A DNA stretch of 64,000 bases from an uncultured Bacteriovorax sp. (GTDB lineage Bacteria; Bdellovibrionota; UBA1018). The stretch lies in assembly GCA_964432565.1 (NCBI GenBank), contig CAYSOA010000004.1, positions 38,839 to 102,838 on the forward strand, written 5' to 3'. The translations under genes and the position numbers were made by a program. Under the pieces are notes generated by a model. The model saw only the letters and a program-made list of their open reading frames with translations, searched no databases and was not told the origin of the DNA. Positions 38,067-61,438 of the stretch are shown in pieces; position 1 is the stretch's first letter; every line of letters begins with the position of its first letter.

Positions 38067-39934
38067 GCGGCCACCCCCTCTCGGCCCACTGTCGTCGTAC
38101 AGACGTTGCCGTCGGCCGCTTCGCCCGTCATGCTGGCCTGAACGATTCCGACCGTATCCAGCACGAGCGCCACCTTTCCATCGCCGAGAATGGCGGCCCC
38201 GGACACTCCCCGGCAGGCCCTGAGACGATCATCCAGACTTTTCAAAACCACCTGGCTCTGGCCCGCCACGCCCGACAGCAGCAGGGCGACCTCCCGCCCT
38301 CCACTGTCGACGATGGCCATCAGCTTCGGACGACCGTTTCTGCCGGAACGAAAGCCGTCCTGCATGTCCACCACCGGATAAAGCTTGTCGCGATGGCGCC
38401 AGGCACTGCGCCCGCTCATGACCTCAACGAGCTGGGACTCATCAAGATCGACCAGCTCACGAATGCTTTCCATGGGAAGAATGAAGGGCTCGTCACCCAG
38501 TCGCACCAGCATTCCGTCGAGAATGGAGGTGGTCATGGGCAGCGAAAGACGCACCACGGTGCCCACTCCGGGCACCGACTCCAGCTCGATGTTGCCCTTG
38601 AGCTTCTCGACCTGCGTCTTCACGACGTCCATGCCCACGCCACGTCCCGAAACGTCGGTGACCTGTTCGGCGGTAGAAAATCCCGGCGCAAAGATCAGTG
38701 AAAAAACCTGGCGGTCGGTCATCTCTCGAGCGGCATCCTCCGATACAATTCCCTTCTCAACCGCTTTGGCCACGATGCGCTCACGCTGCAGCCCCTTGCC
38801 GTCGTCCGAGAGCTCAATCAGAATCCGGCCGCCGCGCTGCCCGGCACGAAGGTAGATCATTCCCTTGGCCGACTTTCCGGCCGCCGCGCGCCCCTGCGCC
38901 GACTCGACCCCATGATCGAGCGAGTTTCGCGCCAGATGCATCAGGGGATCGGCGAGTGCATCCACCATCCCCCGGTCAATCTCGGTTTCTTCTCCCTCCA
39001 TCACGAATTCGATGGGCTTCTCGAGCTTCACGGAAAGATCACGAACCACGCGCTGGGTTTTGAGAAACAGACTTTTCAATGGCGTCACTCGCATGCTGAG
39101 GGTCTTGTCCTGCAGCTCGCGTACGGTCTTGTCGATCAGCGAGACCAACTGGCCCAGTCCCGTCTCGGCGCCGGCGCACCGATTGATCAGCTGGCTTTTC
39201 AAGACGACGAGCTCACCCACCAGGTTCAGCACCGACTCGACACGCTCGGAGTCGATCTTCAGGACTTCGCGTTTGCTCGAGGCGGCGGCACGAGCATCGG
39301 TTGTTGACGGAGCCTGAACAGAACCAGAAGGCCCGACCGGTCCCTGTGACGAGCTGGTCGCCACTGAAGCCTGATGCTCGACGCTGGCCTGTGCCGACGC
39401 GGCGAGAGCCTCCCAGGCCGCGTCATTGAGAACCGATTCGGGATGAATCTCGGGATCGGGTGCCGCCACTGCCAGGGCCTGAGCCTCTGTGACGATCGAA
39501 GGCGCTACCGGCCCCGACTCAGGCGACTGCAGTTTTGCCAGCATCGCTTGAACTTCGGCCTCGAGCGCACCGATGTCCCAGGGCGCTGCATCCTTCCGCT
39601 TCAACTGTTCGATTCGGGTTCGAAAGGCGTCACCGCAGCGCAGAAGAAGCGTGACCACCTCGGTTGTGACAAGCGAGGGATCGTTTCTAAGAACGGTCAG
39701 GCAGTCTTCCACCTGATGAGCGAATTGGGCAAGATCAGTGAAGCCGACGGCGGCCCCGGTTCCCTTCATCGAGTGCGCCATGCGAAAGATCTTTCCGAGC
39801 TCCTCGCCCCTCACCTCGGGATTTTCGAGCTGAAGATACGACTCTTCGCACTGCTCGAGCAGGAAAGTTACCTCGGCAAGAAAATCACCTTGCAGCTCAG
39901 CCATGAAGTCCAGGTCACTTTGAGATTCGCTCAT
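38063..39934 (-). CDS. cheA: chemotaxis histidine kinase CheA
   Basis: The domain order is Hpt (start at MSESQSDLDF), dimerisation, HATPase_c (GRGVGMDVV) and a C-terminal CheW-like domain. Confidence 0.85.
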   Translation of the reverse strand: MSESQSDLDFMAELQGDFLAEVTFLLEQCEESYLQLENPEVRGEELGKIFRMAHSMKGTGAAVGFTDLAQFAHQVEDCLTVLRNDPSLVTTEVVTLLLRCGDAFRTRIEQLKRKDAAPWDIGALEAEVQAMLAKLQSPESGPVAPSIVTEAQALAVAAPDPEIHPESVLNDAAWEALAASAQASVEHQASVATSSSQGPVGPSGSVQAPSTTDARAAASSKREVLKIDSERVESVLNLVGELVVLKSQLINRCAGAETGLGQLVSLIDKTVRELQDKTLSMRVTPLKSLFLKTQRVVRDLSVKLEKPIEFVMEGEETEIDRGMVDALADPLMHLARNSLDHGVESAQGRAAAGKSAKGMIYLRAGQRGGRILIELSDDGKGLQRERIVAKAVEKGIVSEDAAREMTDRQVFSLIFAPGFSTAEQVTDVSGRGVGMDVVKTQVEKLKGNIELESVPGVGTVVRLSLPMTTSILDGMLVRLGDEPFILPMESIRELVDLDESQLVEVMSGRSAWRHRDKLYPVVDMQDGFRSGRNGRPKLMAIVDSGGREVALLLSGVAGQSQVVLKSLDDRLRACRGVSGAAILGDGKVALVLDTVGIVQASMTGEAADGNVCTTTVGREGVAA

Positions 39935-40112
39935 ACCAACTTCAGATCGGTGAATTCTGCGACGGGCTTGATGAAATCCTTTTGACGCTCGGACCTTAAG
40001 AGCGCGCAATCGCAGAAAATTCTCCACAAATTCTTGGCAACTCAGGGCGGCAACGAAACTCAAGTCCAGGGAAGACACTTCCGAAAGGCACTCAGACAGA
40101 AGGAAACTGCAA

Positions 40113-40643
40113 ATGACCCCCTTGAATACCACTGACCAAGCCAACTCGAACTCTGACGCTTCCTCAGCGCTGGCCCGTCCCGGCCAGTACCTGACTTTCC
40201 AGCTGGGAAGCCGCACCTACGGCGTGGCCGTTAGGTCGATACGAGAGATCAATCCGATGACCGACATCACGCCGGTTCCCAAAACGGCTCACTTCGTTGC
40301 GGGCGTCATGAACCTCAGGGGCAAGATCATTCCGGTGATCGACCTCAGGGCAAAGCTCAGCCTGGAAAGGGCCGAGCACACGCGCTCGACCTGTATCGTC
40401 GTGGTGGAGAGCGAAGAGGACTCACAGGGCAACCACTACATGGGAGTGATCGTGGATGCCGTCAACAGTGTCATCGAGCTCGCTGCCGCGCAGATCGAAC
40501 CCCCGCCGGTTTTAGGTGAAACCGCGAAACTGAAGTTTGTGGTGGGGATGGGCAAGATCGAGTCACAGGTCGTGATCCTGCTGGACGTCGCTGCCACGCT
40601 TTCGTCTGCAGAGCTCGAAGCAACCCAGTCCCTGGCTGCCTAG
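40113..40643 (+). CDS. cheW: chemotaxis coupling protein CheW
   Basis: It is a 176-aa CheW-like domain (YLTFQLGSRTYGVAV...IIPVIDLR) and is divergent from cheA. Confidence 0.8.
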   Translation: MTPLNTTDQANSNSDASSALARPGQYLTFQLGSRTYGVAVRSIREINPMTDITPVPKTAHFVAGVMNLRGKIIPVIDLRAKLSLERAEHTRSTCIVVVESEEDSQGNHYMGVIVDAVNSVIELAAAQIEPPPVLGETAKLKFVVGMGKIESQVVILLDVAATLSSAELEATQSLAA

Positions 40644-40718: not shown

Positions 40719-43058
40719 ATGAAGAACCGATCAGCCCTCACTGTTGCCGTGCTCTTTGTTCTCGTTGCGTCCGCACCTTCGTCGTGGAGCGCATCCCCCC
40801 TTCAAGCCCCGCGCGCGGGCATGCTTCCGGAACGCTGGGCCAGCGGCATCAAGCAGGCGTTCGGCACGGCGTACGAAACCTACGATTCTTCAGGTCAGTT
40901 CTCGGCGGCATCATCGACCGCTCCCATCTCCAAGCTTTGGTTTACGGTCGCCCAGGGAATCCTCACCGAAGTGTACTGGCCCCAGCTCGATCAGCCCCAA
41001 ATTCGGGACCTGCAGTTTCTGGTGACCGACGGCCGCAGCTTTCTCTGGGAAGAGCGCCAGGACGGCATCTCCGACGTGCAGTGGATCGAGGCGGGCGTTC
41101 CGGCCTTTCGCATAACCACCCGCGACCTCGCCGGTCGCTTCTTCTTTGAAAAGGTCGTCTATGCCGATCCCGACCGCAACGCCCTGCGCCTGAAGGTACG
41201 TTTCGTTTCAAAGACGCCAGGACTTCAACTCTACCTGCTGAACAATCCCACCGTGGGCGGAACCCCCATGAGCAATCATGCCGTGACTTCGCGCTCGGCG
41301 ATCGCTCCGGGAAAGGGCCTTTACGCGTGGGATGGCAACCAGGCCCAGGCGCTGCTGGCGTCGGTGCCTTTTTCGGCTGCCAGTGCCGCGTTTTCGGGGA
41401 GCCATGACCCGTTTCAGGATCTCCAGCGCGACTTCCGCATGGACCACCAGTACGGAGAAGCGCATGACGGCAATGTCGTCGTCGGCGCCAGGCTGGAACT
41501 GGGGACTGCAGACGAGTTTGAAGTTGCCCTGGGTTTTGGCGGCAGCCTCCTCGACGCAAATCAGGTTGCCGAGGGAAGCCTGTCAGAATCCTTTGAGGCC
41601 GGACTCGACCGCTACCGAAAGCAGTGGCGGGAGTATCAGGGCGGACTCATCGACCTCTCGGCACAATCTCTCGATGGCGGCGATCGTTTTCGTGCCTCGA
41701 CGGCCATGATCAAGTCGATGGAGGACAAGACCTACGCAGGAGCCGTGATCGCCTCACCCTCGATTCCGTGGGGTCTGCACCAGGTGGACTGGAGTCGAAA
41801 CGGTGATCCTCTCTGGAAGCGAGTGGGCGGGTATCACCTGATCTGGCCGCGGGACCTGTACCAGATGGCCACCACTTGGATTGCCGTGGGGGATCTCGCC
41901 TCCGCCAAGGCCTCGTTTGCCCGGCTGAGAACCGCCCAGCTCAGTGATCAGGATGGATTCTGGGAGTACGGATTTCGTCGACGCTCGCGGGACGGCTCTT
42001 TTCTTCAAAACTTCTGGCTGAACGGCTCCGCCTATTGGCAGGGCCTTCAGATGGACGAGACGGCCTTTCCGGTGATCCTCACCTATCGTCTGTGGAAGCT
42101 GGGGGCCGTGACTCTGGCGGACACCTGGGACATGGTTCGTCGGGCCTCCGACTTCATCGTGGATTTCGGCCCCTGGACCGGACAGGAGCGCTGGGAGGAG
42201 AACTTCGGAGCCTCGCCTTCGACCATCGCCTCAGAGATCGCCGCTCTTTATTGCGCGGCCGAAATCGCGCACTCACACGGAGACGACCAAAGGGCCCAGC
42301 GCTATCTGCGCACGGCCGACTCCTGGAGCGCAAAACCAGGAGACAATCTGGAAACCTGGACCTTCACGCGAACCGGTCGCTACGGCGACGGACGCTATTT
42401 CATCCGCTCGGAAGCCGCACAGCGGTTTGACCAGTTCTGGAACCCCGACGACGAGGGCCTGATTCACATTGCCAACGGCGGCCCGACGCTCCGCGAAAAG
42501 GACGTCCTCGACGGGGGTTTCCTCGAACTCGTGCGCCTCGGGGTGCGTGATGCGCTCGACCCCGCCATTCTCGAAACGCTTCCGGAATACGATGCCCACC
42601 TGAGAGTGCGAATTCCCGGAAAGGGCGATGGGTATTATCGCTACACGGCCGACCGCTACAATTATGACGACACGTCAGGGCGCCAGACCCACGGAATGCT
42701 TTGGCCCCTGCTGACCGGCGAGCGCGGGCACTATGCCCTAGCCGCGTCGGTCGCCCGCGGAGAGTCGCGCCCGAAGCGGGACCAGGCCATCGTTCCGTAC
42801 ATTGCCGCCATGGAGGCCTTTGCTTCGTCATCCCTGATGATGCCCGAGCAGGTCTGGGACGGCGGACCCGCAGCCGGCCTCTCGACCGGCTCGGCCACCC
42901 CGTTGGGCTGGAGCCATGCCGAGTACCTCAAGCTGCTGCGCTCCCGGCGCGAAGGCCAGGTCTTCGACCTATTGCCGGACGTCCTGCAGCGATCCCAGGA
43001 ACTGGCAGTGACGCGACGCATCGACGAACTGGGAAGTCCCCAGGGCATCCGCCACTGA
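40719..43058 (+). CDS. secreted glycoside hydrolase family 15 (glucoamylase/glucodextranase-like)
   Basis: A signal peptide precedes an N-terminal beta-sandwich domain and an (alpha/alpha)6 catalytic domain, with IWPRD and ERWEENFG motifs consistent with the GH15 catalytic Glu. Confidence 0.7.
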   Translation: MKNRSALTVAVLFVLVASAPSSWSASPLQAPRAGMLPERWASGIKQAFGTAYETYDSSGQFSAASSTAPISKLWFTVAQGILTEVYWPQLDQPQIRDLQFLVTDGRSFLWEERQDGISDVQWIEAGVPAFRITTRDLAGRFFFEKVVYADPDRNALRLKVRFVSKTPGLQLYLLNNPTVGGTPMSNHAVTSRSAIAPGKGLYAWDGNQAQALLASVPFSAASAAFSGSHDPFQDLQRDFRMDHQYGEAHDGNVVVGARLELGTADEFEVALGFGGSLLDANQVAEGSLSESFEAGLDRYRKQWREYQGGLIDLSAQSLDGGDRFRASTAMIKSMEDKTYAGAVIASPSIPWGLHQVDWSRNGDPLWKRVGGYHLIWPRDLYQMATTWIAVGDLASAKASFARLRTAQLSDQDGFWEYGFRRRSRDGSFLQNFWLNGSAYWQGLQMDETAFPVILTYRLWKLGAVTLADTWDMVRRASDFIVDFGPWTGQERWEENFGASPSTIASEIAALYCAAEIAHSHGDDQRAQRYLRTADSWSAKPGDNLETWTFTRTGRYGDGRYFIRSEAAQRFDQFWNPDDEGLIHIANGGPTLREKDVLDGGFLELVRLGVRDALDPAILETLPEYDAHLRVRIPGKGDGYYRYTADRYNYDDTSGRQTHGMLWPLLTGERGHYALAASVARGESRPKRDQAIVPYIAAMEAFASSSLMMPEQVWDGGPAAGLSTGSATPLGWSHAEYLKLLRSRREGQVFDLLPDVLQRSQELAVTRRIDELGSPQGIRH

Positions 43059-52773: not shown

Positions 52774-52841
52774 CGAGCTGAGCTGAGCCGCTCCAGCCTC
52801 AAGACGAACTGAAAATAACACCATGAATTCAGCGGGTTCCC

Positions 52842-52863
52842 ATACCCGACTCTTTTTGTTTGC
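52842..52863 (+). promoter_or_regulatory. conserved 22-nt upstream element, copy 1 (ATACCCGACTCTTTTTGTTTGC)
   Basis: It is identical to the 22-mer at 61103..61124. Both copies lie 45-49 nt upstream of ATG starts and are followed by similar AT-rich leaders (TTAACwwTTAAGArGGTG). Confidence 0.55.
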
Positions 52864-52911
52864 TTTACTGCACTTTGTAAAGTTATCTTAACTTTAAGAA
52901 AGGTGCTCGCT

Positions 52912-53691
52912 ATGAAACGCTTCCTCCCCCTCGCTGCTGCTGTCATCGTCGTGGGCATCTTTCTCAAAAGCTCACAAAAGGAGCCTTCGGAACCCTCCAC
53001 CACCCCCACCGAGGCGGTTGATCTACCGGTTGCCGACCTCTCCGGCGAGGATCGGCCCTCTCAGACCCGCGAAGTCGGCGAGTCGGAGACCGTTCGACCT
53101 TCGTCGGTTGCTTCAAAAGAGCGCGGGACCGAACCGACCAAGCCTGCGACAAGCAGCATCCCTCCCCGGTCCTCCTGCTGGGCCGCGTCCTTTGAAATCA
53201 CCCGAAGCCTCAGCGCAGCGCAAAGGGAGTCCTTCGGCGAACGCGATCACCTTCTCGATCTCTCGGCCCTTCGCGAGCGGTTTCCCAAGTGGTCTTCGTC
53301 ACGGCTCTGCGTCCGTGCCGAAGGCCATGCTCTCTCCTTCGAGAAGGATTCGAAAAGAAGGGATCACGTCCGCATCCGCGGAGGCTCGGGCAGAATTCGT
53401 CCCGACAGCACCCTGAAGGCGAGCTACTGCTCCGAGAAGGCCATCGACTGCGCCCCCTGCGTCGTGGTCCAGGAGGATTTCGACTCTGCCCTCTTTGGAG
53501 AGTCGGCCGAGGACCAGGCCGAGAACGAAGAGTCGGACATTACCGCACAACTTTCTCCCGAGGTTCAGCGAGAGCTCGCCCGTCTCGAACGCGAAAGGGC
53601 TCCTGCGGCCATTGACCACTGGAAGACCCGTGAGGTCGGCTCGGATTGCACCCCCTCCCCGCGAGTCGCCCAACGTGGAGACCGTCACTGA
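52912..53691 (+). CDS. hypothetical secreted protein, first gene of the Agl/Glt-like cluster
   Basis: There is a signal or anchor helix (MKRFLPLAAAVIVVGIFL) and several Cys residues. Its stop overlaps the next start (TGATG). Confidence 0.5.
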   Translation: MKRFLPLAAAVIVVGIFLKSSQKEPSEPSTTPTEAVDLPVADLSGEDRPSQTREVGESETVRPSSVASKERGTEPTKPATSSIPPRSSCWAASFEITRSLSAAQRESFGERDHLLDLSALRERFPKWSSSRLCVRAEGHALSFEKDSKRRDHVRIRGGSGRIRPDSTLKASYCSEKAIDCAPCVVVQEDFDSALFGESAEDQAENEESDITAQLSPEVQRELARLERERAPAAIDHWKTREVGSDCTPSPRVAQRGDRH

Positions 53692-55391
53692 TGAAGCGCG
53701 CACGCCCACTACGAGTGCTCTCGGGTCTTACCGGAATTCGAAGCCTTGCGCTCGCCGGCAGCTTCGCGCTCCTCTCCCTCTCCGGCTGTACCGAGCAGCT
53801 TCCGGGAAGCTTTCGTTACAAACAGCAGCTCGAAGTCTTTTCGACCAGCCAGGAGGTCAACACCTCCATTGATCTGCTCTGGGTGGTCGACAACTCGGCC
53901 AGCATGGATGTCAGCCAGAAGAAGCTGCGCGATGGATTTTCTGCCTTCGCCCGCGCCTATCTCAAACCCACCTGGGACATCCGTCTGGCCGTGATCACGA
54001 CCGACACCTACCTCGCCCACGCCGCATTCGACGGCTACCTGAATACCGTGATCCCCGGAACCGTCGGCTGGAGGTCGAATCATATCGCCCAGCGTTCGGT
54101 GGATTTCGTCAATCCTGAGCGGATCCCGAACCTTTGGGACAACGCCACGAAGACCTTTCCCAACGGAGTTCGTTATGGCGATATCTCGCCCGTCTGGGGC
54201 TCGAACTGGGCACGACTCATCCCTGGAATTCATGATGGTCCGATGACCACGCTCTGCTCCGAGCTTCTGCCCTACTTTCTCAAGGGCACGTCTCTCTGCT
54301 CCTCGAGAGACCAAATTCTCCCCGCTACGGCCGAAGCAGATGGACTGCGCCCCTGCGTGAGCCCCGATTCCGGAGCTGGAGAATCGAGCGTCACTTCCTG
54401 CATCAATACGACCCAGGTCGACGTCCTGCACACTCAAAGTCCGATCCTCGAAACCCAGCCGCCAACAGGCGTGCCCGCAGATGAGGCGTGGGTGGATGCA
54501 TTGGTTGAAAGGTTTCTCGTCAATGCCAGCGTCGGCAGTTCGGGCCAGGGTTCTGAACGCGGCATCAGCTCGGTACTGCAGCTTCTGGCCGACAACGAGA
54601 GCACCGAAACCCGCTTCTTTCGTCCGGGATCCCTACGCGGCATCCTGTTCATGAGCGATGAGGACGATCAGTCGATGGATCTCTCGCTTGCCACTCCCGG
54701 AACCACCCCACAGACTCACTATCAGTGCGACCAGGAGCGCCTTGCCGAACTCAATCCCGGTGACTCACGGGTGACGACCAGCTGTCCGACCCTCTCCAGT
54801 CGCTGTCCCGAAAAGGTGATCGACGGGTTCAGCTACCGTGTTTCTTACTGTCCGGCAGAGTCCGCCCCCCTGCTGTCGGTCGCCTCTGCAAAACAGCAGC
54901 TCGACACGTTCTTCACCGAGCTGGACGAAGGCACCCAGCCCCAGCCCAATTACTTCGTTGCCGCCATCATCCCCACCTCGGCCGCGGCGATCCAGCAGCT
55001 TCAGGAGGGCCGAGTCAGCGAGGACTCGGCTGTCGGGGCGCTTAAAAACTGGGCCGTCGACCGGGGTGACCGCTACCTCGAACTGGTCGAACGCGTGAAC
55101 AACGGCTCGCTGGCCCTGAATATCGCCGAATCCGACTACACGCCCATTCTCGAAACCATCGGCCGCACGATCGTCTCCAAAAAGGCAACGTTCAAGCTGC
55201 AACGAGAACCCAGCTCACTCGAAGAATTGATGATCTGGGTTCGCCATAACGACGAAACCCGCACGCTGATTTCAGACGAGCAGTTTTCGATCGAAGGAAC
55301 CACGCTCCGGATCACGGACCTTGATCTGGTGCTTTCGCTCGTCTCCACGGATCGGATCGTCATCGACTACCAGCCCAAGAACCTCAAATAA
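53691..55391 (+). CDS. Cys-rich von Willebrand factor A domain lipoprotein (CglB-like candidate adhesin)
   Basis: The lipobox reads LSLSGC and a VWA MIDAS motif is present (LLWVVDNSASM). There are more than 14 Cys residues across the 567 aa. Confidence 0.6.
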   Translation: MKRARPLRVLSGLTGIRSLALAGSFALLSLSGCTEQLPGSFRYKQQLEVFSTSQEVNTSIDLLWVVDNSASMDVSQKKLRDGFSAFARAYLKPTWDIRLAVITTDTYLAHAAFDGYLNTVIPGTVGWRSNHIAQRSVDFVNPERIPNLWDNATKTFPNGVRYGDISPVWGSNWARLIPGIHDGPMTTLCSELLPYFLKGTSLCSSRDQILPATAEADGLRPCVSPDSGAGESSVTSCINTTQVDVLHTQSPILETQPPTGVPADEAWVDALVERFLVNASVGSSGQGSERGISSVLQLLADNESTETRFFRPGSLRGILFMSDEDDQSMDLSLATPGTTPQTHYQCDQERLAELNPGDSRVTTSCPTLSSRCPEKVIDGFSYRVSYCPAESAPLLSVASAKQQLDTFFTELDEGTQPQPNYFVAAIIPTSAAAIQQLQEGRVSEDSAVGALKNWAVDRGDRYLELVERVNNGSLALNIAESDYTPILETIGRTIVSKKATFKLQREPSSLEELMIWVRHNDETRTLISDEQFSIEGTTLRITDLDLVLSLVSTDRIVIDYQPKNLK

Positions 55392-55409
55392 CCAAAAAGG
55401 AGAATGAAC

Positions 55410-56066
55410 ATGGACTTCCTCACCTTCCTCAAAGACCACTGGATGCACGTCGCCCCCATCCTGCTCGCCGCCGCATTTGCCGTAGCCATCGTGATCGAAA
55501 GGTTCCAAACGCTGTACCGAAGCTATCCGATGAAGGACACACACGGCTTCTTCGATCAAATCGGTCGCCACGTCATTGATGGAAACGTCCAGGGGGCCTT
55601 GTCCCACTGCGAGCAACAGGGGCAGAAGCCCGTTGCCGTCGTCGTCAAACAGGCCCTTTTGAGGGCTCAGCAGCCCGAAGCCCTCATCGAGAGCGCTCTC
55701 GAGATCAGCATCCATGAGGCGCAGCAGTCGATTCAAAGGCGAACTGCCTTTCTCTCGACCATCGCCAATGTCGCAACGCTTCTCGGTCTTTTCGGAACGA
55801 TCGCCGGCTTGATCAGTTCGTTTGAGGCAGTCGGTGCTGCCGACCCACAGCAGAAGTCGGCACTCCTTGCTGCCGGCATCTCCACGGCAATGAATGCCAC
55901 GATGATGGGACTTGCCGTTGCGATTCCCTGCATGGTGGCCTTCAGTTTCCTCATGAGCCAGAGCAATCGGGTCATGGCCGAGGTCGAACAAGGCGCAGTT
56001 CGCATCCTCGATCTTCTCAAGCAGCGCTATTATCGGGTGCAGAGCGAAGTTCGGGAGGCCGCATGA
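55410..56066 (+). CDS. MotA/TolQ/ExbB-family proton channel (AglR-like)
   Basis: It has 3 TM segments and the ExbB/TolQ signature region (LSTIANVATLLGLFGTIAGLISSF...AMNATMMGLAVAIP). Confidence 0.8.
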   Translation: MDFLTFLKDHWMHVAPILLAAAFAVAIVIERFQTLYRSYPMKDTHGFFDQIGRHVIDGNVQGALSHCEQQGQKPVAVVVKQALLRAQQPEALIESALEISIHEAQQSIQRRTAFLSTIANVATLLGLFGTIAGLISSFEAVGAADPQQKSALLAAGISTAMNATMMGLAVAIPCMVAFSFLMSQSNRVMAEVEQGAVRILDLLKQRYYRVQSEVREAA

Positions 56067-56515
56067 TGTCGCCCGGTTCAGGAAGCGATGGTCAGGACTT
56101 CGAACTGAACCTCGCAAGCATCATCGACTGTCTCACGGTCATCATCGCCTTCCTCCTGCTTTCATCCTCCTTCGTGTCCTATGGGGCACTCGACACGGCC
56201 GTCGCCGCACCACAGAGTTCCCAAACAGCGGACGGAAGCGAGGAACGACCCCAGAGCCTCACCTTGTCGGTGAAAATTCTGGAGGACGACCGGGTGGAGC
56301 TCGAGATCTCAGGAAAGCGAACTGAAAAGAGAAGGATCGCCCGGGACTCGCTTCGCACCGAACTACAGGCTCTGAAGGCGAAATATCCGGGTTTAGAGGG
56401 AATGGTTCTCTCAGCCGGCCCTCGCCTGCCTTACCGAGAGGTGATTCGAGGCATGGACGAGGCACGCACGATTTTTCCGGCAGTAGCGCTGGGCCTTTCG
56501 GGAGGTCGACAATGA
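56063..56515 (+). CDS. ExbD/TolR-family protein (AglQ/S-like), copy 1
   Basis: It has a single TM with the conserved Asp (LASIIDCLTVIIAFLL) and a 4-nt overlap with the upstream gene. Confidence 0.75.
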   Translation: MMSPGSGSDGQDFELNLASIIDCLTVIIAFLLLSSSFVSYGALDTAVAAPQSSQTADGSEERPQSLTLSVKILEDDRVELEISGKRTEKRRIARDSLRTELQALKAKYPGLEGMVLSAGPRLPYREVIRGMDEARTIFPAVALGLSGGRQ

Positions 56516-56973
56516 AGCGATTTCTGAAGAAGAAGAATAAGCCGCAGTCGACCGAAATGAGCCTGCAGATCACATCGATGGCCGATATCTTTACGATCCT
56601 GCTGGTCTTCCTCTTGAAATCGTATTCGGTCGGCGCCCTCGAAGTGCAACCGAGTCGTGGGCTCGAGCTGCCTGTCGCCCAGAGATCGGATACAGCCGAA
56701 TCCAGAATCGCGCTGGAAGTCTCCGAAAACTCGGTTCAGCTCGATGGCACTCCCGTTCTTCCCCTGAAACACTTCGAGCTTGAAGGTGCAACGCGCCTCG
56801 AGCCGTTGGGAAGGGCGCTTTCGGAGAAACTTGCCGCCCTCGGAGAGGCATCTCAGGGCAAGTTGATTCTGGTTGCGGATGCCCGAGTCCCCTTCGAGAC
56901 GCTCGAAACTCTGATGGCGACGGCCGCAGGTCAGGGCTTCTCAGACCTCAAGCTGGCGGTGGTGCAGCCATGA
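56512..56973 (+). CDS. ExbD/TolR-family protein (AglQ/S-like), copy 2
   Basis: It has a TM with the conserved Asp (MADIFTILLVFLL) and its start overlaps the upstream stop. Confidence 0.75.
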   Translation: MKRFLKKKNKPQSTEMSLQITSMADIFTILLVFLLKSYSVGALEVQPSRGLELPVAQRSDTAESRIALEVSENSVQLDGTPVLPLKHFELEGATRLEPLGRALSEKLAALGEASQGKLILVADARVPFETLETLMATAAGQGFSDLKLAVVQP

Positions 56974-59861
56974 CGCATCCCACGCTCCTGAGGCTGGTCC
57001 TCAGCCTGAGCCTCTGCCTGATTCTCTCGCCCATCAGTGTGTGCGCAGGCTCCAGCGACGAGATGACGCTTCGAAACGTTTCGAATGCGGAACGCGAAAA
57101 AATCGATCGGCTCGTCGATCGAGCCGCCCTCGAATCTCAGAGGCGAGCCATCGAGCAGATCGAAACACTCTTGACGCGCTACCGGAACACGGACCGTGAA
57201 GAGATGCTTCTCGCAAAACTGGGCGACCTGCGACAACAACGCGCCCAGATCGAGTTTCGCCTCGGCCAGCACAGCCGCGATGAGTCCTCCTATCGAAGGT
57301 CACTCTCCGAAGCGATTCGCACGTTCGACGAGGTGCTACGCCGTTTTCCAGAATCCGAACAGGTACCCCGGGTTCTTTCGTGGCGCGCCAGGGCCCATGC
57401 CGACCTCACGGCGCACGCCCTGGCCGAGAAGGATTTCGTCCGTCTGATCCAAAAATACCCCGAGTCTCCGGAGTCTGAATCCGCCCGAATGGCGCTTGCC
57501 GGCTATGCCGCCGAACGGGGCGATCACGCACGCGCCCTCGCCGTGCTCACGCCCCTGGCCTCACGGCCGGAATCCCCATTTCATCCTTTCGCCCTGCACC
57601 AAATGGCCTGGGCGGCGTTCAATCGCGAAGACATTCCCTCGGCGATCGATTATGCGCGCCGAAACGTCGAAGCCCTTCGCCACAGAAGGCAGGAGAGCCG
57701 ACTGAGCTCGAGTGATGAGGCCCTTCTTGAAAACACCCTGCTCGACGTTGCCACCTTCGAGGCGGATCGTGTCGAAAAGATGGCCAATCCGCCCTCGGCC
57801 CAGGAGATTTTCAAAACATTTCAGTCGCTATCCCCCGGTTCACGGATGCCCGCCATGGCGCTTCGCCTGGCCAAGCTGCTGCGCGCACATGATCAGTCGC
57901 GGCTTCTTGCCCAGTGGGGCGCGCTTGCCTGGCAGCACCTTCCCGAGTCCGGCGCCAGTGCAGAAATCGACCTCCTGCTTCGAGAATATGCCCATGGTCG
58001 CCGCGACTTCGTAACGCTTCTTGCGCCGCTTCCCGAGGTGGCTCGAACCGCGAAGAATTCCGCACTCGAGGGCCATCGCAGGCTATATTCGAAGGTCGCG
58101 ACCGAGCTTCACGAGCTTCTATCGAGGAATTCCGGCGCCTCGGTAGAAAAATCCAAACCATGGATTGAAAGGCTGGGGGCCGCCTATGAGCGTTTTCTCG
58201 AGATCACTCCGGCTTCGGATCCCAGAAACTTTCAGGCACGCCTGAATCTCGCCGAGGCATTCGTGGCCCTGAATGAGCTCGATCGTGCCATTCCGCTGTA
58301 TCGAGCCATCGTTGACTCTCAGGAATGGAGCAATGCCGCCGTGATCCGATCGAGCCTCGGATCGATTCGCTCTCGCCTCGAAAAGCTGAAGCAGGAAGGC
58401 GTCATGCCTGAGAAGATCACCCTGGCGGCCTTCGATCGGGAGCTCGACTCCGACCCGCGCATCCTCGAGCTTCTGGCATGGATCGACATGCATCTCTCAC
58501 ACGACAAGAACGGCGAATTCATCACGATGCTGCGCTTCGAGCGAGCCAAGATCCTCTATCGACTCGGACGACGATCAGAATCCCATCTCGCACTCGAGTC
58601 GGTCATCGACACCGCCCCAGACTCAACGGACGCCGGCGGGGCCCTCGCCCTGCTGCTGGACAGTGAGTTCTTTTCGGGTGACCTGCCGTCCCTGAAAAAA
58701 AGAATCGGGGAGCTCCAGAGAAGGCGCGCCCTCTCGTCAAACGCAAGCGCCACCCAGATAATCACTCAGGCAACCCTTCGCCTCGATGTTCTGCTCATGA
58801 ACCACACAGTCGATCCAGGAAACGCCCGCCTTGCGCGCGATCGCCTGCTGGCACGCGGGGACGCTCCGCAGGAGGTTCGAGACGCCGCACTCATCGATCG
58901 GGCACGAGAGCTGGACCTGAACGGAAATCCTGCCAATGCACTGGAGATGCTTCAAAAGGCCTCAAATCCGGAATCACGGGCGCCCGCCCTGCTTCTTCTT
59001 GCCTATGCCTCTGAGAACTGGACGGCCCTTTCTGAAATCTTGCGAACGCAGTGTGATCCGAAGGTGTCGATCTGCGCCCAGTTTTCGCAGTGGATGCGCT
59101 CACGCAATGCACCGAGGACCTCAAATCTCGTCGCTGAGCTGCGCAGGATTTCGAAATCTACCGGAACCGAACAATTGCTCTCCGTGCTGCCACTGCTGAC
59201 CCACCAGAAGAAGTTGGGCTATCGCGATCGCAACCTGTTGATTCGGCTGTCATCAAAGGGCTGGAACGACCTTCTTCCGATCATCCAGTGGGAAGCGCTT
59301 GCGCCGGCCATTGAGGGACTCGAAGCGGCACTCCAGAGCAGCCGTGAGCAGATCCGCCGTCAGTCGCCGCTGAGTGCCACCCAGAAAAGCGAGGCCCACC
59401 TCGTTCATCGAATGGATGTGATTCGGGAATTCGAAAACACGATCAGAGCAGCCCTGCAGATTCCGATTTTTGAGATTCAGGTTTCAGCGCTCCAGCAGCA
59501 CGCCGCCGCCATGCAGGACTTCAGCGAGGACATCGGCCGAATCGAAAACCTGCCCGCAGCAGTCCGATCGGAGATCGAAGCTCGTGCAAGCGAACTACGC
59601 CAGATTGCTGATCAACGCTCGTCCGCGCTGGCTCAGTCGGTCGCCGCGGGAGAGGCATTCATCGCCGGCAACCCGCAGCTCACCACGACGATGCCGATCA
59701 GCAGGGCCCGCAAACGGTGGTTCTTCGAAAACGCCGCAACGCTTTCTGAAACGCAGCAGGCGCTTTGGCTGGGTTGGATTCTCTGGAATTCGGGCGCGAA
59801 GCATGCCGCCTCCAGCGAGTGGGAGAAAGTGAAGCCGACGGTCACAGCGGCCAATCAGTGA
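56970..59861 (+). CDS. large secreted tetratricopeptide-repeat protein (963 aa; GltD/GltE-like candidate)
   Basis: A signal peptide is followed by degenerate 34-aa helical repeats (A..Y....G....A) throughout. Its start overlaps the ExbD stop (ATGA). Confidence 0.65.
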   Translation: MTHPTLLRLVLSLSLCLILSPISVCAGSSDEMTLRNVSNAEREKIDRLVDRAALESQRRAIEQIETLLTRYRNTDREEMLLAKLGDLRQQRAQIEFRLGQHSRDESSYRRSLSEAIRTFDEVLRRFPESEQVPRVLSWRARAHADLTAHALAEKDFVRLIQKYPESPESESARMALAGYAAERGDHARALAVLTPLASRPESPFHPFALHQMAWAAFNREDIPSAIDYARRNVEALRHRRQESRLSSSDEALLENTLLDVATFEADRVEKMANPPSAQEIFKTFQSLSPGSRMPAMALRLAKLLRAHDQSRLLAQWGALAWQHLPESGASAEIDLLLREYAHGRRDFVTLLAPLPEVARTAKNSALEGHRRLYSKVATELHELLSRNSGASVEKSKPWIERLGAAYERFLEITPASDPRNFQARLNLAEAFVALNELDRAIPLYRAIVDSQEWSNAAVIRSSLGSIRSRLEKLKQEGVMPEKITLAAFDRELDSDPRILELLAWIDMHLSHDKNGEFITMLRFERAKILYRLGRRSESHLALESVIDTAPDSTDAGGALALLLDSEFFSGDLPSLKKRIGELQRRRALSSNASATQIITQATLRLDVLLMNHTVDPGNARLARDRLLARGDAPQEVRDAALIDRARELDLNGNPANALEMLQKASNPESRAPALLLLAYASENWTALSEILRTQCDPKVSICAQFSQWMRSRNAPRTSNLVAELRRISKSTGTEQLLSVLPLLTHQKKLGYRDRNLLIRLSSKGWNDLLPIIQWEALAPAIEGLEAALQSSREQIRRQSPLSATQKSEAHLVHRMDVIREFENTIRAALQIPIFEIQVSALQQHAAAMQDFSEDIGRIENLPAAVRSEIEARASELRQIADQRSSALAQSVAAGEAFIAGNPQLTTTMPISRARKRWFFENAATLSETQQALWLGWILWNSGAKHAASSEWEKVKPTVTAANQ

Positions 59862-59928
59862 CAGAAGCGAAATCGCATCACTGCCGCGGCTCTTGATTTT
59901 CGGATGGGCAGTTGAGACGACAGACAGC

Positions 59929-61053
59929 ATGAAGCCCAGTCAGCTCTGGATCCTATTGGCCGTCGCCATCGTCAGTCCATCCGGCGACGCCGCGAATTCA
60001 GTCAGACCTCATCACGCTCAGGGCACACGCACCGCTCACTGGTCACCCGAGACTCGGGCACTTCACGAAAAGCTGAAATCCATTCAGGGAAAGGCGCTTC
60101 TCTTTGGCCACCAGAACGCCACCTGGGAAGGCAGCTTTGGCTGGCATGACAGTCAGCCCGAGGGCACCTACGCGTCGGATGTTCTGACTGTCAGCGGCGA
60201 CTACCCCGCTGTTTACGGCTGGGATCTACTGGACCTTTCAGATGACCTACGACGGCATATCGTCGCTGCACATGAACGGGGCGGCGTGAATACGATCAGC
60301 TGGCACATGCCCAACCCGGTTACCGGGGGATCCTACTCCGACACCACCCGCGCTCTGGGAACCATTCTGCCGGGTGGGCCACACCATCTCGCCTTCCGGT
60401 CGCTGCTGGATCGGGCGGGCGCCTTTCTGGATTCGCTTCGCGACTCGCGCGGCCGCAGAATTCCGATCATTTTTCGCCCCTTTCACGAGCACAATGGCTA
60501 TTGGTTCTGGTGGTGCCTGAAGCACGGAAGCGCGGACGACTTCGCCGCAGTGTTTCGGTACACCGTCGACTATCTCGTCAAAGAGTGGAACCTCGACTCC
60601 CTGTTGATCGCCTACTCACCCGACGCGACTCCGGTCTGGCAGTTTTTTCGCCCCTTCGAGGGATACCCGGGGGATGACCTGATCGATGTGGTGGGACTCG
60701 ACATGTACGGTGACGTGGGGCGTGACACGCTGGGATTCATCAACCGATCAGCGGTTCGCAGAAAAGTTCGCCAGATCACCTCGTTCGCCAACGCCCGAAA
60801 CAAGCTCGCCGCGATCACCGAGACAGGACTTGAAGGAATCACCGACAAGAACTGGTGGACCCGGCTGGTCCTCGACACGCTCGACACATCCTCGCTCAGC
60901 TACCTCATGGTCTGGCGAAATGCTCACGAGAGATCGTCGCATTTCTATGCGCCGAAGCCCGGTCACCCCTCGACACCCGACTTTCTCAAAATGAAGGCGA
61001 GCGGAAAGGTGTGGTTTAATCGAGACTTGGCCTCTTCGGTGAGCCCCCCTTGA
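59929..61053 (+). CDS. secreted glycoside hydrolase family 26 (beta-mannanase-like)
   Basis: A signal peptide precedes the GH26 motifs WHMPNP, FRPFHEHNGYWFWW (acid/base Glu) and AITETG (nucleophile Glu). Confidence 0.75.
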   Translation: MKPSQLWILLAVAIVSPSGDAANSVRPHHAQGTRTAHWSPETRALHEKLKSIQGKALLFGHQNATWEGSFGWHDSQPEGTYASDVLTVSGDYPAVYGWDLLDLSDDLRRHIVAAHERGGVNTISWHMPNPVTGGSYSDTTRALGTILPGGPHHLAFRSLLDRAGAFLDSLRDSRGRRIPIIFRPFHEHNGYWFWWCLKHGSADDFAAVFRYTVDYLVKEWNLDSLLIAYSPDATPVWQFFRPFEGYPGDDLIDVVGLDMYGDVGRDTLGFINRSAVRRKVRQITSFANARNKLAAITETGLEGITDKNWWTRLVLDTLDTSSLSYLMVWRNAHERSSHFYAPKPGHPSTPDFLKMKASGKVWFNRDLASSVSPP

Positions 61054-61102
61054 ACTGGCCACCCGAGTTCTTCAATCTCATCAGGCAGTTAGCCTAACCC
61101 CA

Positions 61103-61124
61103 ATACCCGACTCTTTTTGTTTGC
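61103..61124 (+). promoter_or_regulatory. conserved 22-nt upstream element, copy 2
   Basis: It is identical to the 22-mer at 52842..52863 and lies 45 nt upstream of the ATG at 61169. Confidence 0.55.
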
Positions 61125-61168
61125 AAAGCCTCTTTTTGTTAGTTTTAATTAACAATTAAGAGGTGACC

Positions 61169-61438
61169 ATGCTTTCTTCTCTCACCCCGACGATTCTAGT
61201 TCTGGCACTGATCCTCTCCCCTCAGGCGGTTGCCGGCTCGCGAGAAAAGGTCATCGATTTCGAGGACGCAGTGGTCGAGGGCGTCAACCGAAAGCCCTAC
61301 GACTCCCTGCAGGCCCTGTCTGAAAAGGAGCGCCGCAGTCGCCGCGCGCACCTCTACCATCGACGACTCAGCTTTCAGTCCGAAATTGAAGAAACCCTTC
61401 GCGAACGTGCACTCGAGCACGAAGGAGGCGGATCATGA
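61169..61438 (+). CDS. small secreted protein (hypothetical)
   Basis: A signal peptide (LTPTILVLALILSPQAVAG) is followed by a charged region. Its stop overlaps the next start (ATGA). Confidence 0.45.
   Translation: MLSSLTPTILVLALILSPQAVAGSREKVIDFEDAVVEGVNRKPYDSLQALSEKERRSRRAHLYHRRLSFQSEIEETLRERALEHEGGGS

What the first reader, a model, noticed from the sequence alone, without database searches (positions are those of the whole stretch)
52842..52911. Duplicated 22-nt element (ATACCCGACTCTTTTTGTTTGC) heads both sub-operons of the cluster
The same 22-mer occurs at 52842-52863 and at 61103-61124, each 45-49 nt upstream of an ATG that opens a run of coupled genes. The first run is the secreted protein, VWA lipoprotein, ExbBD and TPR genes. 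The second is the small secreted protein, TonB-C protein, beta-barrel and TPR-like genes.

The downstream leaders are also similar. Both are AT-rich, in a 60% GC genome, and carry TTAACwwTTAAGArGGTG around the RBS. That looks like a shared promoter or operator, or a 5'-UTR regulatory element, that would co-regulate the two halves. The halves are split by an inserted GH26 gene. The element fits neither the sigma54 nor the sigma28 consensus.
Basis: seen in the sequence. Interest (0 to 1): 0.65.

Follow-up and report, generated by a model that had tools for sequence, protein, structure and literature searches.

The report
Shared promoter module of gliding operons
The duplicated 22-mer is real and is the upstream part of a roughly 75-base conserved promoter/operator region that sits in front of both halves of a gliding-motility gene cluster in an uncultured predatory-bacterium lineage, an ordinary kind of co-regulation signal whose regulator is unknown.

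Summary
ATACCCGACTCTTTTTGTTTGC occurs exactly twice in 64 kb, at 52842 and 61103, each just upstream of a run of coupled genes. The genes form an Agl/Glt-type gliding cluster.

In 23 sub-operon heads from related genomes and metagenomes, the 22-mer is one part of a fixed-spacing module:
- a lineage-specific box, ATACCYGAC
- TTGT plus a -35-like TTGC
- N10
- TTGTTA-N8-TAACAA, a palindrome spanning the -10-like region
- a short leader with the ribosome-binding site.

The palindrome and the -35 block are kept in distant relatives that lack the box. There they flank near-canonical sigma-70 hexamers.

Further findings:
- In about 0.96 Mb of related DNA the module occurs only at these heads.
- The second copy is present where foreign genes split the cluster and absent where the cluster is contiguous.
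- No conserved RNA structure, no covariation and no Rfam match were found.
- The sigma-54 and sigma-28 consensus sequences do not fit.
- A terminator-like hairpin exists at some first heads only.

Best reading: this is a DNA-level promoter plus regulator-binding sites that co-express the two halves. The transcription start, the sigma factor and the regulator are inferred, not shown. It is a new instance of a known kind and of modest interest.

The parts
52842..52863 (+). 22-mer, copy 1 (head a). It has two parts: the box ATACCCGAC(T) at 52842-52851, and a T-rich TTGT plus -35-like TTGC at 52853-52863.
   Evidence: Exact match. Orthologous copies exist in L001, L002, L020, L049, L053, L030 and L027. 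The L049 copy is identical at 22 of 22 positions.
52860..52865 (+). -35-like hexamer TTGCTT of head a (register P-b). The alternative register P-a uses TTGTTT at 52856-52861.
   Evidence: T24 and T25 of alignment A4 are invariant across 23 heads.
52875..52892 (+). Degenerate operator of head a: TTGTAA-N8-TAAC(TT). It holds the invariant TGT (52876-52878) and TTAAC (52888-52892). The -10-like candidates here are weak: AAAGTT preceded by TG, or TTATCT.
   Evidence: Alignment A4 and the information profile. Hexamer match is 5 of 12 in either register.
52833..52848 (+). Terminator-like hairpin CGGGTtcccatACCCG, followed by the T-rich part of the 22-mer. It occurs at head a only.
   Evidence: Found by the terminator scan. 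Fold energy is -8.5 to -9 kcal/mol, z -1.4. Analogous hairpins occur in L053, in L005 head a and in L049. They are absent from L001, L030 and all b heads.
52900..52914 (+). Shine-Dalgarno AAGGTG (52900-52905) and the ATG (52912) of the first gene of sub-operon 1.
   Evidence: The same arrangement is seen in orthologues.
52912..59861 (+). Sub-operon 1, in gene order:
- signal-peptide protein
- MIDAS/CglD-like lipoprotein
- ExbB/AglR-like protein
- two ExbD/AglQS-like proteins
- 963-aa TPR protein.
   Evidence: ORF coordinates show overlapping stop and start codons. Pfam and NCBIfam matches. Synteny with L001-L006.
59893..61053 (+). GH26 glycoside hydrolase gene. It is a lineage-specific filler between the two halves; the likely ATG is at 59929.
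   Evidence: Pfam PF02156, E 3e-36. It is present only in the window and L001. Other relatives carry different genes at this site.
61103..61124 (+). 22-mer, copy 2 (head b).
   Evidence: Exact match. Orthologous copies exist in L002, L003, L004 and L005.
61121..61126 (+). -35-like hexamer TTGCAA of head b (register P-b).
   Evidence: 4 of 6 matches. It is followed after 17 nt by TTTAAT (61144-61149), which matches 5 of 6 but lacks A at position 2.
61136..61155 (+). Palindromic operator TTGTTA-N8-TAACAA. It spans both -10-like candidates: TG-n-TAGTTT at 61137-61145 and TTTAAT at 61144-61149.
   Evidence: Palindrome scan, alignment A4 and pair counts without covariation.
61158..61171 (+). Shine-Dalgarno AAGAGGTG and the ATG (61169) of the GltF-sized 89-aa gene.
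   Evidence: M. xanthus GltF is also 89 aa (PMC3169522).
61169..64000 (+). Sub-operon 2, which runs off the end of the window:
- 89-aa secreted protein
- GltG/AgmX-like protein with a TonB-C domain
- OMP_myx_plus beta-barrel
- a further conserved gene.

Best explanation
The 22-mer is the upstream third of a DNA-level promoter/operator module of about 75 bp. The module is present once in front of each half of an Agl/Glt-type gliding-motility cluster.

**Architecture (shown by alignment)**
- a lineage-specific box, ATACCYGAC
- 7-8 nt, T-rich
- TTGT directly followed by a -35-like TTGCnn
- 10 nt
- 10-70 nt
- Shine-Dalgarno sequence and ATG.

**Mechanism (inferred)**
- RNA polymerase with a sigma-70-family factor starts transcription in or just after TTAAC. 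In this window that gives a leader of about 20-30 nt.
- A dimeric regulator binds the TTGTTA/TAACAA half-sites over the -10 and start region. A third TTGTT in direct orientation lies 19 bp upstream. This position is typical of a repressor.
- A second factor, or the polymerase alpha subunit together with an activator, uses the ATACCYGAC box at about -45 to -50.
- Because both heads carry the same sites, the motor/adhesin half and the GltF-G-H half are expressed together, even though unrelated genes have been inserted between them.
- The second copy most likely arose by duplication of the promoter, or was retained, when the cluster was split.
For: 1. The exact duplicate is far beyond chance.

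2. The module is conserved with gapless spacing in 23 heads from at least 17 genomes or contigs (alignment A4). T24, T25, T41, T43, T54 and A56 are invariant and the flanks are not conserved. The identical 22-mer is found in L049, whose MIDAS protein is only about 60% identical.

3. It is specific:
- A profile of the 43-nt core hits only sub-operon heads at E<0.1 in 961 kb.
- The TGTTA-N8-TAA[C/T]A scan found 14 sites in the same DNA, counting both-strand reads of one palindrome once. Twelve are heads; the two others are L044:16428 and a relaxed TAATA match at L079.
- A strict pattern found 13 places in 185,579 reference genomes. Three are heads in two related MAGs. The other ten are singletons in unrelated taxa, about as many as I estimated would arise by chance (about 17).

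4. Distant relatives lack the box but keep the -35 block and the palindrome, aligned with good hexamers:
- TAGACA-17-TATTAT, 10 of 12, the best promoter-like site in L036
- TTGCTT-17-TATAAT and TTGCTT-17-TAATAT.

5. The distance from the module to the ATG varies from about 20 to about 85 nt while the module stays intact.

6. Head b is present wherever the halves are separated (window, L002-L005, L023). It is absent where the TPR gene runs straight into the small gene (L042, L044).

7. In L006 the box is displaced by exactly 10 bp, one helical turn. This is expected for a protein site that must face the polymerase.

8. Six or seven of the 36 orthologous metagenome contigs begin 4-40 nt upstream of the first ATG, downstream of TTAAC. 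All come from a few JGI sample series. If those series are metatranscriptomes, which I recall but could not verify, their 5' ends place the transcription start downstream of the module.

9. There is no RNA structure signal.
Against: - No transcription start is mapped.
- By sigma-70 criteria the window's own heads are weak. The consensus scan flags neither.
  - Head a scores 5 of 12 in both possible registers.
  - Head b scores 9 of 12 but has T instead of the near-invariant A at position 2 of its -10.
  - Two overlapping registers, 4 nt apart, cannot be told apart.
- The most conserved blocks (TTGT-TTGC, TTGTTA, TTAAC) are not the canonical hexamers. A different sigma factor, or complete dependence on an activator, stays open.
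- No regulator is identified. The only conserved neighbour is a histidine kinase, paired with an OmpR-type regulator in L005, downstream of sub-operon 2 in two relatives. OmpR-type proteins usually bind direct repeats, not palindromes.
- The source genome outside the 64-kb window could not be searched, so the regulon may be larger.
- The sample type of the contigs used as 5'-end evidence is unverified.
Confidence: 0.72

Rival explanations
1. It is a promoter for an alternative sigma factor. On this reading the conserved blocks (TTGTTTGC, TTGTTA, TTAAC, and perhaps the ATACCYGAC box) are themselves the recognition elements of a dedicated non-housekeeping sigma factor, rather than sigma-70 hexamers plus regulator sites.
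For: - The window heads fit sigma-70 poorly.
- The best-conserved columns are not the canonical hexamer positions.
- The motif is restricted to one functional gene set.
- In Bdellovibrio a third of attack-phase promoters have no assigned sigma motif (PMC3627812).
Against: - No pair of conserved blocks has the 15-18 nt spacing of a sigma-70-family -35/-10 pair. TTTGC to TTGTTA is 10-11 nt, the box to GTTTGC is 6-7 nt, and TTGTTA to TTAAC is 7 nt.
- The sigma-54 (GG-N10-GC) and FliA (TTAAG-N16-CCGATA) consensus sequences are not met.
- Distant relatives have good sigma-70 hexamers in the same register.
- The palindromic symmetry points to a dimeric regulator, not a sigma factor.
Confidence: 0.15
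2. It is a 5'-UTR RNA element. On this reading transcription starts upstream of the 22-mer, and the leader folds into a hairpin that pairs a pyrimidine-rich stretch just after the 22-mer with the Shine-Dalgarno sequence. This would control translation, in the manner of an RNA thermometer or a protein-binding leader.
For: The single-sequence folds of both window leaders pair GCACUUU or CCUCUUU with the Shine-Dalgarno sequence and pair the AT-rich inverted repeat. The z-scores are -2.4 to -2.7 for the 111-nt stretches.
Against: - RNAalifold finds no consensus structure in 14 leaders.
- The anti-SD-like stretch sits in different alignment columns in the two heads.
- The palindrome is 81% paired, against 79.4% for the shuffled control (69 of 500 shuffles reach the observed value). 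That means conserved sequence, not covariation.
- In L027, L030 and L052 the Shine-Dalgarno sequence is 15-60 nt further away while the module is unchanged.
- There is no Rfam match.
- Conservation stops sharply 5' of the box, with no conserved promoter further upstream.
- The contig 5' ends, if they come from transcripts, lie downstream of the proposed stem.
Confidence: 0.06
3. It is an intrinsic terminator of the upstream gene. On this reading ATACCCG is the 3' arm of a hairpin and CTCTTTTTGTTTG is its U-tract, so the repeat is simply two similar terminators.
For: - The scan flags CGGGTtcccatACCCG plus a T-run at 52833-52848.
- Analogous hairpins use the box in L053 (-12.5 kcal/mol, z -2.6), in L005 head a and in L049. 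The arm sequences change with the C/T variant of the box.
Against: - There is no hairpin at the second window copy, nor at L002 or L003 head b.
- At the b heads of L002 and L003 and at the a head of L006, the upstream gene is divergent, so nothing needs terminating.
- The hairpin is lost in the 92%-identical relative L001.
- The stems are short, 5-6 bp.
- A terminator does not explain the conserved downstream blocks or the fixed spacing to them.

At most this is a secondary, local use of the box at some a heads.
Confidence: 0.05
4. It is a dispersed repeat, a MITE remnant, or the direct repeats left by a recombination or insertion event that flank the 8.2-kb first block. On this reading it has no regulatory role.
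For: - Two identical direct copies bracket sub-operon 1 plus GH26.
- The point between the halves is a hotspot for foreign genes.
- Gene order is permuted in L042 and L044.
Against: - There are only two copies in 64 kb and no extra copies in the related MAGs or loci.
- No terminal inverted repeats were noted in the flanks read. No dedicated search for terminal repeats or target-site duplications was run.
- The copies sit at orthologous positions and are under strong purifying selection across lineages with 33-60% protein identity.
- The a and b heads are each orthologous across genomes, so the duplication is old and not a recent insertion scar.
Confidence: 0.03

Closest known systems
Sigma-70-type bacterial promoters with a palindromic operator over the -10 and start region, plus an upstream activator site (the general lac, gal or SOS-box type of architecture)
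   Same: - AT-rich region 20-80 nt upstream of the start codon.
- A TTG-containing -35-like block.
- A TAnnnT-type -10 17 nt downstream in distant relatives.
- An 18-20 bp palindrome over the -10 and start region.
- A GC-rich box about 10-15 bp upstream of the -35, whose displacement in one lineage equals one helical turn.
   Different: - The half-site sequence TTGTTA-N8-TAACAA (TGT-N12-ACA) does not match the CRP/FNR or MrpC spacing (TGT-N10-ACA) or the LexA boxes, as I recall them. By spacing alone it resembles the TyrR box TGTAAA-N6-TTTACA; that is a recalled lead, not a test.
- The window's own hexamers are sub-canonical.
- The regulator and the transcription start are unknown.
FliA (sigma-28) attack-phase promoters of Bdellovibrio bacteriovorus, TTAAG-N16-CCGATA (PMC3627812)
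   Same: - The phylum-level lineage is the same.
- It is a motility- and lifestyle-linked promoter class shared by many operons.
- TTAAG occurs in the window leaders.
   Different: - There is no CCGATA box.
- The TTAAG here lies beside the ribosome-binding site, not 16 nt upstream of a -10.
- The conserved blocks are entirely different.
Agl-Glt gliding machinery clusters of Myxococcus xanthus and Bdellovibrio (PMC3169522)
   Same: The gene content and order match:
- an 89-aa GltF-sized gene
- a GltG/AgmX-type TonB-C protein
- an OMP_myx_plus barrel
- AglRQS-like ExbB plus two ExbD
- a large TPR protein
- a VWA/MIDAS adhesin-like lipoprotein.

The modular, split organisation also matches.
   Different: - That paper does not treat promoters; the word does not occur in it.
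- NCBIfam equivalog cut-offs for GltG and CglD are not reached here, so these are distant homologues.
- The two-head promoter duplication is a feature of this lineage.
Intrinsic terminator followed by a promoter in a compact intergenic region
   Same: At head a, a short GC stem ends in the box and is followed by a T-run that overlaps the -35 region.
   Different: The hairpin is missing at head b and in several orthologues, while the box and T-run stay conserved.

Membership tests
Sigma-70-type promoter | A -35 hexamer close to TTGACA and a -10 hexamer close to TATAAT, 16-18 nt apart, with A at position 2 and T at position 6 of the -10 | tested here: inconclusive
   - The window heads are not flagged by the scan.
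- Head b is TTGCAA-17-TTTAAT, 9 of 12 but without A at position 2.
- Head a scores 5 of 12.
- In the same alignment register, distant orthologues are near-canonical: L036 TAGACA-17-TATTAT at 10 of 12, and L023 head b TTGCTT-17-TATAAT.
Sigma-70-type promoter | Transcription starts 5-9 nt downstream of the -10 | not testable with these tools
   The only evidence is indirect. Six or seven contigs begin 4-40 nt upstream of the ATG, and their sample type is unverified.
Sigma-54 promoter | A GG at -24 and a GC at -12, separated by 10 nt (TGGCAC-N5-TTGC) | tested here: not met
   TTGC is present at the 3' end of the 22-mer. Twelve nt upstream of its G the sequence is CT, not GG. There is no GG anywhere in 52842-52899.
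Sigma-28 / FliA promoter | TAAA or TTAAG at -35, with a GCCGATAA or CCGATA -10 15-16 nt downstream | tested here: not met
   There is no CCGATA in either intergenic region. The consensus is taken from PMC3627812.
Palindromic transcription-factor operator | Two inverted half-sites at fixed spacing, conserved in sequence across orthologous promoters | tested here: met
   TTGTTA-N8-TAACAA is found in 23 heads. 81% of cells are complementary and the columns are conserved (T43-A56 in 23 of 23), with no covariation. In 961 kb the scan found it at 12 heads and at two other sites, L044:16428 and a relaxed TAATA match at L079.
Palindromic transcription-factor operator | A cognate DNA-binding protein binds the site | not testable with these tools
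   The only candidate is a histidine kinase, plus an OmpR-type regulator in L005, downstream of sub-operon 2 in L005 and L002.
Cis-regulatory RNA (riboswitch, thermometer or leader) | A conserved secondary structure supported by covariation, or a match to a curated family | tested here: not met
   No Rfam hit at either head even at E up to 5. RNAalifold predicts 0 pairs. Pair counts equal the shuffled control.
Intrinsic terminator | A GC-rich stem-loop directly followed by a U-tract, downstream of a co-directional gene | tested here: inconclusive
   Met weakly at head a, with a 5-bp stem. Not met at head b or at heads with divergent upstream genes.
MITE or dispersed repeat | Many copies at unrelated sites, terminal inverted repeats and target-site duplications | tested here: not met
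   There are two copies in 64 kb. Only sub-operon heads match in the related loci and in the reference genomes. No terminal inverted repeats were noted in the flanks read; no dedicated search for terminal repeats or target-site duplications was run.
Agl-Glt gliding gene cluster (context of the element) | A TolQ/ExbB-type and two TolR/ExbD-type motor genes, a GltG-type TonB-C protein, TPR proteins, and a small GltF gene followed by a GltH-type barrel | tested here: met
   - Pfam: MotA_ExbB, two ExbD, TonB_C and TPR.
- NCBIfam: AgmX/PglI C-terminal domain at 107 bits (cut-off 40) and OMP_myx_plus at 70.5 bits (cut-off 60).
- The GltG and CglD equivalog models are hit but below their cut-offs.
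- The small gene is 89 aa, as in M. xanthus GltF.

The most novel reading that the evidence does not exclude
The module may be the recognition site of a dedicated, still unknown regulator (or regulator plus co-factor) that switches the whole gliding engine on and off across a deep branch of Bacteriovorax-like predators. It would use three TTGTT half-sites and a phase-dependent ATACCYGAC box.

The second copy may be a duplicated promoter that rescued the downstream half of the cluster after foreign genes split it. That would be a traceable example of operon repair by promoter duplication.
Probability: 0.3. Interest if true: 0.45.

Novelty: new member of a known kind. Interest (0 to 1): 0.33.

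Why it matters
How predatory Bdellovibrio-like bacteria regulate gliding is largely unknown, and these lineages are uncultured.

A sharply defined cis-module shared by both halves of the gliding cluster is useful in three ways:
- It gives a concrete handle for finding the regulator, for example by DNA-affinity capture or reporter assays.
- It allows the gliding regulon to be predicted in MAGs.
- It helps annotate operon boundaries.

It also shows how a split gene cluster can keep coordinated expression. It is not a new kind of element.

Tried and rejected
- **Exact-protein look-up of the window's ExbB.** Not on record. The source genome is also absent from the reference-genome collection, because the strict pattern did not return it. 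The rest of the source genome could therefore not be scanned for a regulon.
- **SD-sequestering hairpin.** Attractive in the two window leaders. Rejected because RNAalifold finds no consensus, the pairing register differs between heads, and the module-to-SD distance varies.
- **Bacteroidetes-type -33/-7 promoter, ECF, sigma-32, sigma-B, sigma-54 and FliA consensus sequences.** Compared by eye or from the literature. None has compatible spacing.
- **MerR-type spacer operator.** Rejected: the palindrome lies over and downstream of the -10, not between the -35 and the -10.
- **Recent gene conversion as the reason for 22/22 identity.** Rejected. The same 22-mer occurs in the distant L049, and the a and b heads are each orthologous across genomes. 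Identity therefore reflects constraint.
- **Short motifs alone (TACCYGAC, ACCYGACT).** Not specific: 35-43 hits in 961 kb. Only the box combined with the core is specific.
- **The P0007 locus.** Returned gene calls but no DNA.
Matches only one copy.

Full report
**1. Observation**

The 22-mer ATACCCGACTCTTTTTGTTTGC is present exactly at 52842-52863 and 61103-61124 on the + strand. No third copy appears even at 3 mismatches, and none appears in 100 shuffles. The ATGs at 52912 and 61169 follow 48 and 44 nt later.

Each ATG opens a run of genes whose stops and starts overlap or abut. The leaders are 33-36% GC in a 60% GC window.

The first has a 1-nt shorter gap.

**2. Context**

Pfam and NCBIfam identify an Agl/Glt-type gliding cluster.

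Sub-operon 1:
- a signal-peptide protein
- a MIDAS/CglD-like lipoprotein
- one ExbB and two ExbD (AglRQS-like)
- a 963-aa TPR protein.

Sub-operon 2:
- an 89-aa secreted protein, the size of M. xanthus GltF (PMC3169522)
- a GltG/AgmX-type protein with a TonB-C domain
- an OMP_myx_plus barrel
- a further conserved gene.

A GH26 gene lies between the two. The closest reference MAGs are labelled Bacteriovorax. The lineage is rare, with only 12 homologues of the TPR protein in 5.8 billion proteins.

**3. Comparative anatomy**

I fetched orthologous loci in two ways: through the TPR protein and through a metagenome scan with an alignment of the MIDAS lipoprotein.

The 22-mer recurs at the same places:
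- L001: ATTCCTGACTCTTTTTGTTTGC
- L002, both heads: ATACCTGACT[T/C]ATTTTGTTTGC
- also L003, L004, both heads of L005, L020, L049 (identical 22-mer), L053, L030 and L027.

Anchoring 23 heads on the T of a conserved TGT gives a gapless 65-column alignment, A4. The shared plan is:
- box ATACCYGAC
- 7-8 nt
- TTGT-TTGC
- N10
- TTGTTA-N8-TAACAA
- a variable leader
- Shine-Dalgarno sequence and ATG.

Six columns are invariant (T24, T25, T41, T43, T54, A56). Conservation stops sharply 5' of the box.

The box is confined to the higher-GC relatives. Distant relatives (L052, L023, L040, L033, L039, L050, L036) have an A/T-rich stretch in its place but keep the -35 block and the palindrome. In L006 the box (ATCCCCGAC, 8 of 9 matches) sits exactly 10 bp further upstream.

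**4. Specificity**

- In the window the composite core TTTGC-N10-WTTGT occurs only at the two heads. One-mismatch hits are at chance level.
- In 961 kb of fetched DNA, an nhmmer profile of the 43-nt core hits only sub-operon heads at E<0.1.
- The TGTTA-N8-TAA[C/T]A scan found 14 sites in the same DNA once both-strand reads of one palindrome are merged. Twelve are heads. The other two are L044:16428 and a relaxed TAATA match at L079.
- A strict pattern scanned over 185,579 reference genomes gave 13 places. Three are heads in the two related MAGs, and ten are singletons in unrelated phyla, about as many as I estimated would arise by chance (about 17).

The element is therefore neither a dispersed repeat nor a general promoter consensus of these genomes.

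**5. Promoter reading**

Two overlapping sigma-70-type registers fit.
- P-b: a -35 at A4 columns 25-30 (TTGCnn, or TAGACA in distant relatives), a 17-nt spacer, and a -10 at columns 48-53. The -10 reads TTTAAT in the close clade and TAATAT, TATAAT, TATTAT or TAAGAT in distant ones.
- P-a: a -35 TTGTTT, a 17-nt spacer ending in TGn, and a -10 such as TAGTTT or TATATT.

The consensus scanner picks TAGACA-17-TATTAT (10 of 12) in L036 in the P-b register. It flags nothing at the window heads. Head b scores 9 of 12 but lacks A at position 2 of its -10. Head a scores 5 of 12.

Either register puts the start in or just after TTAAC. In this window that gives a leader of about 20-30 nt.

Other points support a promoter:
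- The module-to-ATG distance varies from about 20 to 85 nt among orthologues while the module stays intact. This argues for a promoter unit and not an SD-linked structure.
- Head b is present wherever unrelated genes separate the halves: GH26 here, and MFS transporters, histidine kinases, a metallo-beta-lactamase-fold gene or an AAA_14 gene elsewhere.
- Head b is absent in L042 and L044, where the TPR gene runs directly into the small gene.

**6. A hint about the transcription start**

Six or seven of the 36 orthologous metagenome contigs begin only 4-40 nt upstream of the first ATG, which is downstream of TTAAC. For example, L045 begins 21 nt upstream, 6-7 nt after the TTAAC position of its relative L030.

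My rough estimate is that fewer than one such contig would be expected by chance. All of them come from a few JGI sample series that I recall as metatranscriptomes. I could not verify this, so I treat it as suggestive only.

**7. Operator reading**

The half-sites TTGTTA and TAACAA are conserved in sequence. In the named-structure test, 81% of cells are complementary against 79.4 +/- 1.3% in shuffles (69 of 500 reach the observed value), and only 3 cells show a double change.

This is the signature of two conserved protein-contact half-sites, not of an RNA helix. A third TTGTT lies in direct orientation 19 bp upstream, inside the 22-mer.

The site spans the -10 and start region, the usual place for a repressor. 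The box at about -45 to -50, with its one-turn displacement in L006, fits an activator or alpha-subunit contact.

No regulator can be named. A histidine kinase, with an OmpR-type regulator in L005, follows sub-operon 2 in L005 and L002 and is only a candidate.

**8. Rivals**

- **5'-UTR RNA.** Single-sequence folds pair a pyrimidine stretch with the Shine-Dalgarno sequence (z about -2.5). RNAalifold gives no consensus, the pairing register differs between heads, Rfam is silent, and the Shine-Dalgarno sequence moves relative to the module.
- **Terminator.** A 5-bp hairpin uses the box at head a, and similar hairpins occur at a few a heads (L053, L005, L049). They do not occur at L001, L030 or any b head. 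Heads with divergent upstream genes keep the box. At most this is a local secondary use.
- **Alternative sigma factor.** Not excluded. However, no pair of conserved blocks has sigma-70-family spacing, and sigma-54 and FliA fail (for the FliA consensus).
- **Mobile or dispersed repeat.** Rejected on copy number and orthology.

**9. Why 22 of 22**

The a heads and the b heads are each orthologous across genomes: their variable spacers group by head type. The identical 22-mer is also found in distant L049. The identity within the window therefore reflects purifying selection on an old duplication, not recent conversion.

**10. Verdict**

This is a real, strongly conserved, cluster-specific cis-regulatory module. 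It is most likely a promoter with an overlapping palindromic operator and a lineage-specific upstream box, present at both heads so that the two halves of the gliding machinery are co-expressed.

It is a new instance of a well-known kind of element. The transcription start, the sigma factor and the regulator remain to be shown.

Noticed in passing
L021, L029, L032, L045, L048, L051 (and perhaps L041), first 5-40 nt: These contigs begin just upstream of the first gene's ATG, downstream of the TTAAC block. All come from a few JGI sample series, which may be metatranscriptomes. If so, they give approximate 5' ends of the operon transcript.
   Followed up: partly
L042:1480-1730 and L044:4230-4480: In these distant relatives the TPR gene runs directly into the small GltF-like gene, with no second head. 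The gene-1/MIDAS pair lies downstream of the GltG block. The cluster is therefore permuted and contiguous there.
   Followed up: partly
L005:18689-20370 and L002:22295-22895: A histidine kinase lies directly downstream of sub-operon 2 in both relatives (53% identity between the two). In L005 an OmpR-type response regulator follows it. This pair is a candidate regulator of the cluster.
   Followed up: partly
window 61111-61124 and 61130-61143: Head b contains an internal direct repeat, CTCTTTTTGTT(T/A)G, with a 19-nt period. It links the 22-mer to the left arm of the palindrome, making three TTGTT half-sites in all.
   Followed up: partly
window 52823-52831 and L005:14299-14307; window 61087-61093 and L002 about 17960: Short blocks are shared upstream of the box. 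ATGAATTCA lies 11-12 nt upstream in window head a and in L005 head b. TTAGCCT lies 7 nt upstream in the b heads of the window and of L002. Their meaning is unknown.
   Followed up: no
L006:3616-3643 (the same sequence is in L022): The ATCCCCGAC box is displaced exactly 10 bp upstream compared with all other heads that carry a box.
   Followed up: partly
L044:16424-16445: A perfect palindrome, TTTGTTAG-N6-CTAACAAA, lies away from any gliding head, at the 5' end of a minus-strand gene. It is either chance or another site for the same regulator.
   Followed up: no
window 59493-59642 (-): A sub-threshold Rfam hit to IRES_Bip (26 bits against a gathering score of 40) falls inside the TPR coding region. 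It is almost certainly spurious.
   Followed up: no
window 6572-9990, 16547-19805, 36028-40216 and 40719-43058: The window also holds two NtrC-type sigma-54 activator plus histidine-kinase pairs, a CheA/CheB chemotaxis block and a GH15 glucodextranase-like gene. None carries the motif.
   Followed up: no
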